Assembly (NCBI GenBank): GCA_019058445.1
Contig: JAHPZA010000004.1
Location: 32,001-96,000, forward strand
DNA length: 64,000 nt
Reading direction: 5' to 3'
DNA from: Promethearchaeota archaeon
Lineage (GTDB): Archaea > Asgardarchaeota > Lokiarchaeia > Sigyniarchaeales > SOKP01
Positions within the stretch are counted from its first letter, which is position 1. Each line of letters begins with the position of its first letter. Positions 25,789-29,406 of this stretch are shown here, one piece after another. The notes under the pieces were generated by a model, which did not search any database, was not told the DNA's origin, and saw nothing but the letters and a program-made list of their open reading frames with translations. Position numbers and translations under genes: made by a program.

Positions 25789-26181
25789 ATGCCTTTAGTT
25801 AGAGTAGAGATTTTAAAAGGAAAAAGCTCAGAATATAAAAGAGCCATACTAAATGGAATTCATGCCGCTTTAAAAGAAGCTTTAAAAATCCCCGATTATG
25901 ATAGAACACAACGATTATATGAGCTCGATAAATCTAACTTCGAAATTCATAGACAAAGATCAGAAAACTATACAATAATCGAAATAACCATGTTTAGAGG
26001 TCGAAGTCTCGAAGCGAAAAGAAAGCTATATTCAGAAATTGTGAAGAATCTAAAATGTGCCCCAGGAATCGATGGAATGGATATTGTAATTGTTGTACAT
26101 GAGCCTAAATTAGAGAATTGGGGTATTCGAGGAGGAAAACTTCCAAATGAGGCGGGATTAGAATTTAAAATCGAAGTCTAA
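25789..26181 (+). CDS. Tautomerase superfamily protein
   Basis: N-terminal catalytic Pro (MPLVRVEI), 'GRSLEAKRKLY' and 'ENWGIRGG'. Confidence 0.88.
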   Translation: MPLVRVEILKGKSSEYKRAILNGIHAALKEALKIPDYDRTQRLYELDKSNFEIHRQRSENYTIIEITMFRGRSLEAKRKLYSEIVKNLKCAPGIDGMDIVIVVHEPKLENWGIRGGKLPNEAGLEFKIEV

Positions 26182-26345
26182 CAATTAATTTTTTTTTTTA
26201 AATTATAGCATTAGTTTTTAATCCAATCTGATTGATAGTAAATAGATCTTATCTATTATCGGAAAGAATGGTCAGAAAACAAAAAGTTTTTAACATATGA
26301 GATTATTTTTTTTTATAATTAACAACTACATTGGGAATAAAAAAA

Positions 26346-26459
26346 ATGAAAACGCTTCGAAAAAGCATTACTTTTGATATAAAAATAAGTTTGAGGCGAA
26401 TTTCTTCCCTAGTCTTGTTGTTAAGTTTATTAGATCTACTTTTATTATTATTACTTTAA
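26346..26459 (+). CDS. Leucine-rich leader peptide (37 aa) of leuA
   Basis: MKTLRKSITFDIKISLRRISSLVLLLSLLDLLLLLLL*. 15 Leu in total, 13 in the last 16 codons. Ends 93 nt before the leuA ATG. Below the ORF-track length cutoff. Confidence 0.8.
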   Translation: MKTLRKSITFDIKISLRRISSLVLLLSLLDLLLLLLL

Positions 26460-26516
26460 GCCTCGTCTCGTTTTATAATATTTGAGGTCTTTGATCTCTT
26501 ATAAACGTGGTGGGGC
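26460..26516 (+). promoter_or_regulatory. Long RNA hairpin in the leuA leader (putative attenuator switch)
   Basis: GCCUCGUC(26460-67) pairs with GGUGGGGC(26509-16). CGUUU(U)AUAA pairs with UUAUAAACG, and GAGGUC-UUU-GAUCUC forms the apical stem. GC-rich island in an AT-rich spacer. Confidence 0.65.
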
Positions 26517-26552
26517 GTTGTAATATAAATAAATCAAATTAGGTAATTTAAA

Positions 26553-28166
26553 ATGACAGAAAAAGAGGACATATATGTCTCGCAGATGATGGATAAAATA
26601 CGAGGGTCATTGATCCTTCCTGAAAGGGCGTATTTTTTTGATACGACCCTTCGTGATGGAGAACAGACACCAGGAATTAGTTTCAATCATGAAGAAAAAT
26701 TATCAATAGCTCAAGCTTTAAATGAACTAGGGATTGATATCATTGAGGCTGGATTTCCCGTTATTTCTGAGGGAGATTTTAAAGCATGCAAAGATATTTC
26801 TAAAATGGGTTTAGATTCCGAAATAATGGGTTTAGCTCGCATAAAGAAAATCGACATTGATAAAGTTATTGAAGCAGATATGGATAGCATACACGTGTTT
26901 ATTGCAACTTCAGATCTTCACATGAAAGAAAAATTGCAGATGACACGAGAAGAAGTATTAAAGGATATAGCAGAACTAACTTCATATGCTAAGGAGCATT
27001 ATTCAACAGTTTTATTTTCAGCAGAGGATGCAACACGGTCTGACTTGGATTTTTTAATTAAAGCTAATAAAACTGCTGTTGAAAGTGGCGCTACTCGGGT
27101 AAATATACCAGATACTGTTGGTACCATAACTCCTAATGCTTTTGGTTATATCATTCGAAAAAATTATGAAGCACTACCTAAAAACATAAGAATTGCCGCT
27201 CACTGCCATAACGATTTTGGATTGGCAGTTGCAAATACTATTGCTGCGTTTGAGAATGGGGCGTCTGAGGCACAAACTACAATAATAGGATTAGGAGAAC
27301 GAGCGGGAAACGCGGCTTTCGAGGAAACAGCCATGTCTCTTTATGCTTTATATCGAATACCTATGAATATCAATACCAGAAAAATTTTTCCTACAGCAAA
27401 ATTAATAGAAAGCTATTGTGGTGGAAAGATTAAAATAGGAAGATTGCAGCCATTAATCGGCCAAAATGCGTTTGCCCATGAATCTGGCATTCATGCTCAT
27501 GGAATGATAAAACATGCGCGTGTGTATGAACCAATTACACCAGAATTGATAGGAATTCGACGCTCTGATGATGTTGAGCAAATAGTTAAAAAATCGATTA
27601 AATTAGGAAAGCATACAGGAGGGCATGCCCTTAAAGCAAAATTAGAGGATTTAGGAATTCATCCTACAGATATACAATTTAGAAAAATCTTCGATCATAT
27701 CAAAAGATTTGGAGATAAAGGGCATGAAGTAATGGAAGAAGATTTTTTAGCAATTGTAAAAGATGTTATGGGTGAACTACCCGAAGAAGAGCAATATGTA
27801 AAAATTGAGGAACTGACGGTTTTAACCGGCTCCGTTACTCCTACCAGTACCGTTAGGTTAAAGATTCGTAATAATGGAGATTATATAGAAAGAACTGAAT
27901 CTTCTATAGGCGTAGGTCCTGTTGATGCATCATGTAGAGCAATAGTTAAATGCTTTGAGCCTATGAGTAAAGTTAAGCTTTTGGAATATAATATTGATGC
28001 TGTGACTGGAGGAACTGAAGCTTTAGGACATGTTTCCATTGAGTTAATGGATTTAGAAACTAATAATATTGTAAGGGCATCTGCTGCTCATGAGGATATA
28101 GTAATGAGCTCCGTACTTGCGCTTATAAAAGGACTCAATCGTATCGTGAAAGATAAAAATCCATAA
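26553..28166 (+). CDS. leuA: 2-isopropylmalate synthase (DRE-TIM family with C-terminal regulatory domain)
   Basis: DTTLRDGEQ, HCHND, GLGERAGN, FAHESGIH, GVGPVDA. Citramalate synthase cannot be excluded from motifs alone, but the Leu leader favours LeuA. Confidence 0.82.
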   Translation: MTEKEDIYVSQMMDKIRGSLILPERAYFFDTTLRDGEQTPGISFNHEEKLSIAQALNELGIDIIEAGFPVISEGDFKACKDISKMGLDSEIMGLARIKKIDIDKVIEADMDSIHVFIATSDLHMKEKLQMTREEVLKDIAELTSYAKEHYSTVLFSAEDATRSDLDFLIKANKTAVESGATRVNIPDTVGTITPNAFGYIIRKNYEALPKNIRIAAHCHNDFGLAVANTIAAFENGASEAQTTIIGLGERAGNAAFEETAMSLYALYRIPMNINTRKIFPTAKLIESYCGGKIKIGRLQPLIGQNAFAHESGIHAHGMIKHARVYEPITPELIGIRRSDDVEQIVKKSIKLGKHTGGHALKAKLEDLGIHPTDIQFRKIFDHIKRFGDKGHEVMEEDFLAIVKDVMGELPEEEQYVKIEELTVLTGSVTPTSTVRLKIRNNGDYIERTESSIGVGPVDASCRAIVKCFEPMSKVKLLEYNIDAVTGGTEALGHVSIELMDLETNNIVRASAAHEDIVMSSVLALIKGLNRIVKDKNP

Positions 28167-28221: not shown

Positions 28222-29406
28222 CTATTTTAAGAACTCTTCAAGAGAATTATAGACAATTTCTAAAGTATCTAAATCTGGTAAAAATGTTATTCTAAAATGA
28301 TCTTTTCCATAATTACCAAAACCAGAGCCATAAACAGTGCAAATTCCCGTCTTTTTAAGAAGATCTAACACGAATTCTTTATCATTATTCCATTGAGTAA
28401 ATTCTTTAAAATCAATTTTAGGAAATAAATAAAAAGTCCCATCAGCGTTATTACAGGTTAATCCTTCGATTTGCTTTATTCGCTTATAGGAATAATCGCG
28501 TCTCTCTCTTAATTTTTTGACCATTTCATCTGTATGAGGGCCAGGATTTCGAATAGCTTCAATAGCAGCAAATTGAGCTACAGAATTTGCACATAATCTT
28601 GCTCGAGCTAATTTTTCAATACCCTCCTTTAATTCTGCTAATTTATTTAGCTTATCATGGTAATAGATATATCCCATTCGCCACCCGGTTGCAAGATGAG
28701 CTTTTGAAAATCCATTCATTCCAATAATAGGTACGTCATTACTAAGAGAACTAGGACATACATATTCTTTTTCATAGGTTATTTGATCATAGATTTCATC
28801 AGATAAAATAGGTAAATCATATTCACCTGCTAAATCAATGATCTGTTTGATTTTATTTCTACTATATACTATTCCCGTTGGATTATTGGGAGAACAAATC
28901 AAAATGGCTTTAGTTTTATTAGTAATTTTCTTTCTCAAATCATCAATATTAGGTTCCCAATTATCACTTTCGTCAAGTTCATATTCTACTGGAATCCCAT
29001 CAAAAAATTTGGAATAATTAATATAAACTGGATAGGACGGACCAGGGATAAGAAATTCATTATTATTATCTAATAATCCGGCCATAACAAAAAAAATACC
29101 TTCTGTGACTCCAGATGTAATTAAAACATCGTCCGGCTTAAGATCTATGTCATTTTTATTATTTTCATATTTACATATCGCTTCGCGTAGCTCCCTCACA
29201 CCTAAACTATCAACATAATAATTTTGTCCAGCAAAGGTAGCATCCGCAGATGCTTGTGAAATATATTCTGGAGTTTTAAAGTCATATATAACTGGATCTC
29301 CAATATTTAAGTGATATATTTTTTGACCTGTTTTTTTCAGTTCATTCGCGACTGCTGCTACATCTCTTATTGCGTATTCGAGATCTCTTAACCTCCTAGT
29401 AACCAT
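28222..29406 (-). CDS. Class I/II PLP-dependent aminotransferase (alanine/aspartate type)
   Basis: LNIGDP, SPNNPTG, SDEIY, GFSKAHLATGWRMG. Confidence 0.93.
   Translation of the reverse strand: MVTRRLRDLEYAIRDVAAVANELKKTGQKIYHLNIGDPVIYDFKTPEYISQASADATFAGQNYYVDSLGVRELREAICKYENNKNDIDLKPDDVLITSGVTEGIFFVMAGLLDNNNEFLIPGPSYPVYINYSKFFDGIPVEYELDESDNWEPNIDDLRKKITNKTKAILICSPNNPTGIVYSRNKIKQIIDLAGEYDLPILSDEIYDQITYEKEYVCPSSLSNDVPIIGMNGFSKAHLATGWRMGYIYYHDKLNKLAELKEGIEKLARARLCANSVAQFAAIEAIRNPGPHTDEMVKKLRERRDYSYKRIKQIEGLTCNNADGTFYLFPKIDFKEFTQWNNDKEFVLDLLKKTGICTVYGSGFGNYGKDHFRITFLPDLDTLEIVYNSLEEFLK

What the first reader, a model, noticed from the sequence alone, without database searches (positions are those of the whole stretch)
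26393..26516. Mutually exclusive RNA structures abutting the leader stop codon, without a classical terminator
Seen: a 57-nt hairpin begins at the base after the leader TAA (GCCUCGUC/GGUGGGGC, CGUUU/AAACG, UAUAA/UUAUA, GAGGUC/GAUCUC). Its 5' arm (UCGUCUC, 26463-69) can instead pair with GAGGCGA (26393-99) inside the leader ORF. No U-tract follows the hairpin, and the leuA RBS (AGGT, 26541) lies outside it. Inference: a ribosome reaching the stop codon would melt the 5' arm, whereas one stalled on early Leu codons would let it fold. The output is therefore probably not a bacterial intrinsic terminator. It may be access of the archaeal termination nuclease aCPSF1/FttA to U-rich RNA, or translational re-initiation, which would be a new attenuation mechanism.
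Basis: partly seen in the sequence, partly recalled or inferred. Interest (0 to 1): 0.8.

Follow-up and report, generated by a model that had tools for sequence, protein, structure and literature searches.

The report
Stop-abutting hairpin of archaeal leucine leader
In front of the leucine-biosynthesis gene leuA of a Loki-type Asgard archaeon sits a tiny leucine-codon-rich reading frame whose stop codon touches a strongly conserved RNA hairpin; it looks like a ribosome-based leucine sensor of a kind so far described only in bacteria, but it is built without a bacterial terminator.

Summary
A 57-nt hairpin (26460-26516, -19 to -21 kcal/mol, z -4.1) starts at the base after the TAA of a 37-codon leader ORF (26346-26459) whose last seven codons are Leu. 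No U-tract follows, and the leuA SD (26541-44) lies outside the hairpin.

The leader plus a hairpin 0-6 nt after the stop recurs in 39 distinct leuA loci of Promethearchaeota. The arms covary. Structures this stable occur in under 1% of this genome's intergenic windows.

The "mutually exclusive" partner (GAGGCGA 26393-99) can pair (-11 kcal/mol). It is significant only in the four closest genomes and never appears in any constrained minimum-energy fold. I found no conserved competing helix, no SD sequestration and no oligo-T terminator.

Best reading: a one-hairpin, ribosome-gated leucine attenuator. A ribosome that reaches the last Leu codons or the stop opens the GC-rich base. A ribosome stalled earlier leaves it folded. 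The output is inferred, not shown; factor-dependent (FttA/aCPSF1) premature termination is my leading guess.

The scan has already noted this same stretch, and sister leaders elsewhere in this genome (leuS, trpB2, cimA, pheST). I re-saw the first three myself. I found no published archaeal case in the library searched.

The parts
26189..26199 (+). T11 tract 8 nt after the stop of the upstream tautomerase-like gene (25789-26181). It is an archaeal-type terminator signal, so leader and leuA form their own transcription unit.
   Evidence: Sequence. Gene 3' ends in this genome are enriched in T runs (T>=5 in 63% against 44% of 5' regions).
26284..26325 (+). Two conserved AT-rich promoter-like boxes (AAGTTTTTAAC and TTTATAAT at 26312-19). 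The transcription start is not mapped.
   Evidence: Both boxes recur at similar distances from the leader ATG in orthologues. The promoter reading is inference only.
26333..26337 (+). GGGAA, an SD-like motif 9-13 nt before the leader ATG.
   Evidence: AGGRA/GGGAA is seen at this position in most orthologues. SD motifs are enriched upstream of ATG starts in this genome.
26346..26459 (+). Leader ORF of 37 codons plus TAA, with 14 Leu codons.
   Evidence: It is conserved as an ORF in 39 distinct loci. The stop codon varies (TAA 26, TAG 8, TGA 5).
26436..26456 (+). Terminal run of seven Leu codons (CTA CTT TTA TTA TTA TTA CTT), the presumed sensing codons.
   Evidence: The last four leader codons are Leu in 34-39 of 39 loci, using all six synonyms. 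The genome-wide Leu share is 9.9%.
26393..26399 (+).
   Evidence: -11.2 kcal/mol, z -2.3 here. It is significant only in L001-L004 and absent from all minimum-energy folds.
26460..26516 (+). Conserved 57-nt hairpin abutting the stop codon. Its GC-rich base clamp is 26460-67 paired with 26509-16; the interior is AU/U-rich.
   Evidence: 39 loci, mean z -3.7, 35 with z<-2, first paired base 0-6 nt after the stop; covariation; the base holds about half of the stability.
26517..26552 (+). Unstructured A-rich spacer. It is 33-43 nt long in 34 of 38 loci (53% A, 29% U, 5% C).
   Evidence: Pairing with the leader tail is no better than in shuffles (z +0.3/+0.4).
26541..26544 (+). AGGT, the Shine-Dalgarno of leuA. 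It is complementary to ACCU in the 16S 3' end ...GGAUCACCUCCU.
26553..28166 (+). leuA, 2-isopropylmalate synthase. It is monocistronic; the next gene (28222-29406) converges.
   Evidence: NF002085 scores 581.8 bits, above its cut-off of 517. ORF map.

Best explanation
This is the RNA half of a leucine-sensing leader of leuA in a Loki-type Asgard archaeon. It consists of one conserved hairpin clamped onto the stop codon of a Leu-codon-run mini-ORF.

Shown here: the ORF, the Leu run next to the stop, the hairpin and its covariation. Also shown: there is no conserved competing helix, no oligo-T terminator and no SD sequestration.

Inferred: the ribosome is the switch. With ample Leu-tRNA it keeps pace with RNA polymerase, runs to the last Leu codons and the stop, and occupies about 6-9 nt of the 5' arm. 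The GC-rich base then cannot close, and roughly 50 nt of U-rich RNA stays single-stranded behind the polymerase. With scarce Leu-tRNA the ribosome parks four or more codons upstream. The hairpin folds, and only a short U-poor, A-rich spacer is exposed before a ribosome loads on the leuA SD.

Most speculative step: the open state is read by the archaeal termination nuclease FttA/aCPSF1, which needs about 36 nt of U-rich single strand at the RNA exit. That would give premature termination or cleavage when leucine is plentiful and read-through when it is scarce. The logic is that of bacterial Rho-dependent attenuators, with an archaeal factor.
For: Hairpin in the window: (z -4.1).

Conservation: every one of 39 distinct loci has a Leu-run ORF followed by a hairpin that starts 0-6 nt after the stop.

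Covariation: native arms pair at -19.5 against -11.2 kcal/mol for chimeras; 251 of 273 basal cells are canonical against 185 +/- 5 when permuted. On a model-fitted alignment 78.9% of cells pair against 44-59% with slid partners, 11 of 19 pairs change on both sides, and the covariation score exceeds all 500 shuffles.

Coding constraint: all six Leu synonyms and all three stop codons are used.

Ribosome geometry: blocking the first 10 nt after the stop halves the stability (-20.1 to -9.4 kcal/mol on average). The hairpin is intact with the A site on L24, L31 or L35, and lost or reduced with the A site on L37 or the stop.

Not a terminator of the organism's own type: its gene ends carry T tracts, not hairpins. 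T>=5 occurs in only 4 of 38 spacers, against 20% of control regions.

Same module at a second leucine gene: a Leu-run ORF plus hairpin lies before leuS in 4 genomes. One of them has the purine and pyrimidine arms swapped, so the structure matters rather than the arm sequence.

FttA requirement for U-rich single-stranded RNA from -1 to -36: PMC11616081.
Against: No expression data exist. The only RNA runs holding the locus cover pieces of the leuA coding region. Nothing links FttA to this site. U content of the hairpin interior (40%) is no higher than at ordinary gene ends (41%). The spacer before leuS is about 110 nt, so the 'short spacer' argument does not generalise. The ribosome footprint size in these archaea is assumed from other organisms. 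The transcription start, and translation of the leader itself, are not shown. The sign of regulation is argued from logic only.
Confidence: 0.4

Rival explanations
1. Two-structure switch. GAGGCGA inside the leader ORF competes with the 3' arm for the 5' arm, acting as an anti-hairpin.
For: The pairing exists in the window (-11.2 kcal/mol, z -2.3) and in the three closest genomes (z -2.6 to -3.6). A UUGAGG-like motif recurs about 16 codons before the stop in many leaders.
Against: Mean z over 39 loci is -0.45, and the best sites scatter from -35 to -101. The pairing is never in the minimum-energy fold in any ribosome state or in the truncated transcript. The hairpin is about 9 kcal/mol more stable. 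The partner lies behind the sensing ribosome, so the pairing would have to bridge it. The converse pairing of the 3' arm with the leader is also at chance level (z +0.18).
Confidence: 0.08
2. Translational control. Either the folded hairpin keeps its U-rich interior away from the A-rich leuA ribosome-binding site, and opening it lets that interior pair with the SD/AUG. Or the hairpin loops out 57 nt so that terminating ribosomes are handed to leuA.
For: With the A site on L37 the window's minimum-energy fold pairs 26469-84 with 26540-55. Mean unpaired probability of the leuA initiation region falls from 0.65 to 0.58 when the ribosome sits at the stop, and from 0.60-0.73 to 0.38-0.46 in L001-L003. 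The distance from hairpin to ATG is tightly kept.
Against: The effect is small and absent in most loci (p 0.04 uncorrected, relatives not independent). The Leu-codon tail does not pair with the SD or spacer better than chimeras or shuffles do. The refolding would last only while the ribosome sits there. Hand-over or re-initiation would raise leuA when leucine is plentiful, which is the wrong sign.
Confidence: 0.17
3. The hairpin is a stability, processing or protein-binding element, for example a block to 5'-3' exonuclease or an operator for a leucine-responsive RNA-binding protein. It would work independently of ribosome position.
For: No conserved alternative structure was found. The actinobacterial LEU element was likewise proposed to bind a protein (PMC1262725).
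Against: There are no conserved unpaired nucleotides or loop motif. The arm polarity is reversed in one leuS leader. The fixed 0-6 nt spacing to the stop of a Leu-run ORF in 39 loci has no explanation under this reading.
Confidence: 0.15
4. Not regulatory. The ORF encodes a small hydrophobic peptide, or is a by-product of AT-rich sequence, and the hairpin is unrelated.
For: Leu-rich tails are the commonest homopolymer-like ORF tails in this 31% GC genome (1100 of 2949 candidates). The peptide resembles a transmembrane helix.
Against: The module sits before leuA in 39 loci and before leuS in 4, the two genes most tied to leucine. Analogous Trp and Ile mini-ORFs lie before trpB2 and cimA.
Confidence: 0.05

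Closest known systems
Enterobacterial leu operon leader (leuL; Rfam Leu_leader) and other leader-peptide transcription attenuators
   Same: A short ORF with a run of codons for the pathway's end product lies directly upstream of the first committed gene. Ribosome position is read through RNA structure.
   Different: There is no terminator hairpin with a U-tract and no conserved antiterminator. The sensing codons run up to the stop, and the only conserved helix touches the stop. The host is an archaeon. There is no Rfam match.
E. coli tna operon (TnaC) and Salmonella mgtA/corA-type Rho-dependent attenuators (my own knowledge)
   Same: The cis element that decides termination lies immediately next to the leader stop and is masked or exposed by the ribosome. 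Termination is factor-dependent, with no intrinsic terminator.
   Different: The factor here would be FttA/aCPSF1, not Rho. The signal is codon starvation, not a peptide-ligand arrest. A hairpin, rather than a rut site, abuts the stop. Factor dependence is untested.
Actinobacterial LEU element upstream of leuA (Seliverstov et al. 2005, PMC1262725)
   Same: A Leu-run upstream ORF is followed by a compact conserved structure before leuA, without a classical terminator. The mechanism is unresolved there too.
   Different: In that element the base stem pairs the Leu codons with the leuA SD and encloses a pseudoknot. Here such pairing is at chance level and the structure is a plain hairpin.
ermC/cat-type translational attenuation (my own knowledge)
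   Same: A leader ORF with a ribosome stall next to a hairpin.
   Different: Those hairpins contain the SD of the regulated gene. Here the SD lies 24 nt beyond the hairpin and is not sequestered.
Short-ORF/hairpin ribosome shunt of plant pararetroviruses (CaMV 35S leader; my own knowledge)
   Same: A short ORF ends a few nucleotides before the base of a stable hairpin, followed by an unstructured landing stretch and the main ORF.
   Different: That is a eukaryotic scanning mechanism. It would couple leuA positively to leader translation, the wrong sign for a biosynthetic gene. leuA also has its own SD.

Membership tests
Bacterial leader-peptide transcription attenuator (e.g. Rfam Leu_leader) | Short translated ORF with tandem codons for the regulating amino acid | tested here: met
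   37 codons, 14 of them Leu, the last 7 all Leu. Conserved in 39 loci with synonymous variation. Translation itself is not shown.
Bacterial leader-peptide transcription attenuator (e.g. Rfam Leu_leader) | Intrinsic terminator: a GC-rich hairpin immediately followed by a U-tract | tested here: not met
   The longest T run in the window's spacer is 3. T>=5 occurs in 4 of 38 orthologous spacers against 20% of controls.
Bacterial leader-peptide transcription attenuator (e.g. Rfam Leu_leader) | Conserved antiterminator helix mutually exclusive with the terminator | tested here: not met
   5' arm against leader: mean z -0.45. 3' arm against leader: z +0.18. Leader tail against spacer: z +0.3.
Bacterial leader-peptide transcription attenuator (e.g. 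Rfam Leu_leader) | Match to the curated covariance model | tested here: not met
   No Rfam hit at gathering score in the 64 kb window. Only spurious sub-threshold miRNA-like hits at E<=10.
Factor-dependent (Rho/tna-like) attenuation, archaeal version with FttA | Regulatory RNA element adjacent to the leader stop, within reach of the terminating ribosome | tested here: met
   The hairpin starts 0-6 nt after the stop in 39 loci.
Factor-dependent (Rho/tna-like) attenuation, archaeal version with FttA | Termination depends on the factor and on exposed single-stranded U-rich RNA | not testable with these tools
   Only the published FttA requirement is available (PMC11616081). There are no 3'-end data for this locus.
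Translational attenuation (ermC/cat) and actinobacterial LEU element | SD or start codon of the regulated gene is paired within the leader structure or with the regulatory codons | tested here: not met
   The SD lies outside the hairpin. Native tail-SD duplexes (-6.8 kcal/mol) equal chimeras (-6.8), with z about 0. The extended stem has z +0.3/+0.4.
Archaeal intrinsic (oligo-T) terminator | Run of five or more T in the non-template strand | tested here: not met
   The longest T run inside the window's hairpin is 4.
Riboswitch / T-box | Conserved unpaired nucleotides forming a ligand or tRNA pocket, and a model match | tested here: not met
   No invariant columns in the alignments. No Rfam match.

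The most novel reading that the evidence does not exclude
Asgard archaea sense amino-acid supply by ribosome stalling on leader mini-ORFs. The leuA version works without any terminator or antiterminator. A single hairpin is held open or left closed by the ribosome, and this gates access of the CPSF73-like termination nuclease FttA/aCPSF1 to nascent RNA. It would be an archaeal counterpart of Rho-dependent attenuation and the first cis-regulatory use of FttA.
Probability: 0.28. Interest if true: 0.9.

Novelty: new variant of a known kind. Interest (0 to 1): 0.77.

Why it matters
Leader-peptide attenuation is textbook bacterial biology and depends on coupled transcription and translation. In the library searched I found no report of it in archaea. 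A review of archaeal coupling does not mention it.

Here the element has strong comparative support in the archaeal lineage closest to eukaryotes. It lacks the bacterial output module, so it must feed into archaeal machinery: FttA-dependent termination, RNA decay or initiation.

It offers a small, defined and mutable substrate for three open questions. Do archaeal ribosomes and RNA polymerase couple functionally? Is FttA used for gene-specific control? How is amino-acid biosynthesis regulated in Asgard archaea?

Tried and rejected
(1) MAFFT plus RNAalifold on 39 or 17 sequences gave no, or only a 5-bp, consensus because the arms were out of register. This was replaced by per-sequence folds, arm-swap energies and a covariance-model alignment.

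(3) SD sequestration by the Leu-codon tail, suggested by several minimum-energy folds: rejected.

(4) Pairing of the 3' arm with the conserved UCYCCUUUAGG leader motif: at chance level.

(5) A weak terminator made of the hairpin plus a short U run: by eye from the spacer list, about 17 of 38 spacers have T>=3 within 10 nt, and the window's own does not. This is not a defining feature.

(6) Metatranscriptome runs X1 and X2 hold only short contigs inside the leuA coding region and nothing over the leader, so they say nothing about transcript ends.

(7) A genome-wide scan for ORFs with amino-acid runs was dominated by out-of-frame noise. It was useful only for spotting the leuS and trpB2 leaders.

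(8) The model R1 search of the whole genome found only the leuA copy. The second hit (E 0.14) lies after an aldo-keto reductase gene on the other strand and is chance.

(9) A repeated or mobile element is excluded by the same single-copy result.

Full report
**What is in the window.** Between a tautomerase-like gene (25789-26181, followed by a T11 tract at 26189-99) and leuA (26553-28166) lies a 37-codon ORF. leuA matches NF002085 at 582 bits, above its cut-off. The ORF runs from 26346 to 26459 and encodes MKTLRKSITFDIKISLRRISSLVLLLSLLDLLLLLLL. leuA stands alone; the next gene converges on it.

Its energy is -19.1 kcal/mol against -8.9 +/- 2.5 for shuffles, z -4.1, and none of 200 shuffles folds as well. 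The stretch from hairpin to ATG is 36 nt, A-rich, and has no T run longer than 3. The SD AGGT lies at 26541-44. Rfam finds nothing in the window and nothing real at E<=10 around the site.

**Organism.** Orthologous contigs are titled Promethearchaeota/Promethearchaeia MAGs. The window's genome has 4.6 Mb, 31% GC and a 16S 3' end reading ...GGAUCACCUCCU. SD-type motifs are enriched 3-9 fold before its ATG starts.

**Conservation.** leuA orthologues came from 40 relatives and from species-representative genomes. Among them, 39 distinct loci with 66-95% LeuA identity carry a Leu-run ORF upstream. One locus of that identity range (L022) does not. Four loci at 56-59% identity and the Hadarchaeota and methanogen loci do not either.

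The last four leader codons are Leu in 34-39 of the 39 loci. All six Leu synonyms occur, and the stop is TAA, TAG or TGA. This argues for selection on the reading frame rather than on a U-rich RNA.

In every one of the 39 loci the 66 nt after the stop fold into a hairpin whose first paired base is 0-6 nt from the stop and whose last is at 43-61 nt. Mean z is -3.7, and 35 loci have z below -2.

The arms are co-adapted:
- Native 5' and 3' halves pair at -19.5 kcal/mol, against -11.2 +/- 3.9 for halves taken from unrelated loci.
- 251 of 273 cells in the seven basal pairs are canonical, against 185 +/- 5 after permutation. Basal positions 4 and 5 alternate between U-A (18, 17) and C-G (13, 14).
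- On a model-fitted alignment of 18 sequences, 78.9% of cells pair against 44-59% when partners are slid. Eleven of 19 pairs change on both sides, and the covariation score (0.278) exceeds all 500 shuffles (0.200 +/- 0.018). That alignment leans towards the structure, and relatives are not independent.

For scale, 66-nt windows in this genome's intergenic regions reach -15 kcal/mol in under 1% of cases.

**The "mutually exclusive" pairing.** GAGGCGA (26393-99) can pair with the 5' arm (8 bp, -11.2 kcal/mol, z -2.3). The same holds in the three closest genomes. Over all 39 loci, however, the mean z is -0.45 and the best sites scatter.

In the window this pairing is never part of the minimum-energy fold. 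That is true for the transcript cut before the 3' arm, for the full leader, and for folds with a 27-nt ribosome footprint placed on L24, L31, L35, L37 or the stop. The partner also lies behind the sensing ribosome.

I looked for other competitors and found none above background:
- 3' arm against leader: z +0.18.
- Leu-codon tail against the SD window: natives -6.8 kcal/mol, the same as chimeras, z about 0.
- Tail against the whole spacer: z +0.3 and +0.4, if anything less paired than chance.

The conserved RNA element is therefore one hairpin, not a switch between two helices.

**Not a terminator.** Gene ends in this genome carry T tracts (T>=5 in 63% of 356 convergent 3' regions against 44% of 5' regions) and are no more structured than 5' regions. 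The spacers after the leader hairpin have T>=5 in 4 of 38 loci, against 20% of control upstream stretches. They are 53% A and 29% U, and 33-43 nt long in 34 of 38 loci.

**Ribosome geometry.** The base of the hairpin is 57% GC and the interior 31% GC. Forbidding pairing of the first 10 nt after the stop halves the stability, from -20.1 to -9.4 kcal/mol on average and from -20.8 to -11.1 in the window. With an assumed footprint of -15 to +11 around the A-site codon, all 18 native pairs of the hairpin persist with the A site on L24, L31 or L35. No native pair remains with the A site on L37. Ten of the 18 pairs remain with the A site on the stop.

A starved ribosome would stall at the first hungry Leu codons, so the hairpin should be folded under starvation. 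It should be opened only by a ribosome that has decoded the whole run. For a biosynthetic gene this makes the folded hairpin the ON state.

**Output (inference).** The remaining candidates are events triggered by the open state. FttA/aCPSF1 needs nascent RNA from -1 to -36 as a U-rich single strand (PMC11616081). An opened hairpin would supply about 50 nt of 40% U RNA behind the polymerase. The folded state leaves only a short U-poor spacer. This is my leading model, but nothing here tests it.

A translational variant has weak support. Accessibility of the leuA initiation region drops from 0.65 to 0.58 on average. The drop is larger in the window's genus.

**Sister elements.** In the same genome a Leu-run ORF (MKNSLSLQFLNKVLLLLL) lies before leuS. 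It is followed by a stop-abutting helix and by a hairpin with an ACCUCUUUUUA/UAAAAAGAGGU stem. It recurs in two same-genus genomes. A fourth genome has a Leu leader followed, 1 nt after the stop, by a hairpin with purine and pyrimidine arms swapped.

I also saw two other leaders:
- A six-Trp mini-ORF before trpB2. Its last Trp codon and stop lie inside a small hairpin, and a U/C-rich tract lies about 30 nt beyond.
- A 22-codon ORF with 12 Ile codons before a citramalate-synthase-like gene.

Earlier notes of this scan describe the same leaders and a Phe leader before pheST. Those notes were leads, not evidence.

**Literature.** Six full-text searches found no archaeal leader-peptide attenuator. 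The nearest published relative in gene context is the actinobacterial LEU element (PMC1262725), whose defining Leu-codon:SD stem is not met here.

**Verdict.** The two-structure reading is not supported beyond the genus. The "no classical terminator" point is supported and extended. The element is a well-supported, apparently unreported archaeal variant of ribosome-mediated attenuation with an unknown, probably non-bacterial, output.

Noticed in passing
G000 contig C6, minus strand, leader stop ends at 1143080 (locus L079/L080): A second leucine leader, MKNSLSLQFLNKVLLLLL, lies 195 nt before leuS. It is followed by a stop-abutting helix (+2..+17 with +42..+57, -14.4 kcal/mol) that competes with a larger hairpin (ACCUCUUUUUA/UAAAAAGAGGU). 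It is present in G003 and G007. G016 (L094) has a Leu leader with a hairpin whose arm polarity is reversed.
   Followed up: partly
G000 contig C6, minus strand, leader stop ends at 1236704: An 18-codon ORF, MATVNNWAWRWQWPWRWR, with six Trp codons lies 164 nt before a TrpB2-like gene. The stop lies inside a GGCGUUG/UAACGCC hairpin, and a UCUUUCUUCUUUU tract follows about 30 nt later.
   Followed up: partly
G000 contig C9, plus strand, leader stop ends at 413946: A 22-codon ORF, MKIMKIIPIGIIITSIIIGIII, lies about 117 nt before a citramalate/isopropylmalate-synthase-like gene (MAKNNKLYIYDATLREGAQ...). A long pyrimidine tract is looped inside a hairpin downstream.
   Followed up: partly
window 26400-26423 and orthologous leaders: The leader peptides share a middle motif S-(S/P)-L-G-L-L-L, with nucleotides UCY CCU UUA GGU that contain the same UAGGU as the leuA SD. 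Its role is unexplained; possibilities are a peptide arrest motif, an internal SD-like pause, or simple ancestry.
   Followed up: partly
window 26284-26337: Two conserved AT-rich boxes and a GGGAA motif precede the leader ATG. Depending on which box is the TATA element, the leader mRNA is either nearly leaderless or has a 5' UTR of about 23 nt with an SD.
   Followed up: partly
window 26189-26199: A T11 tract lies 8 nt after the stop of the tautomerase-like gene, typical of this genome's T-tract gene ends.
   Followed up: yes
L017 (G039:C95), upstream of leuA: The Leu leader and its hairpin lie 368 nt before leuA instead of about 93 nt, across an assembly gap of Ns. This may be an insertion or a scaffolding artefact.
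   Followed up: no
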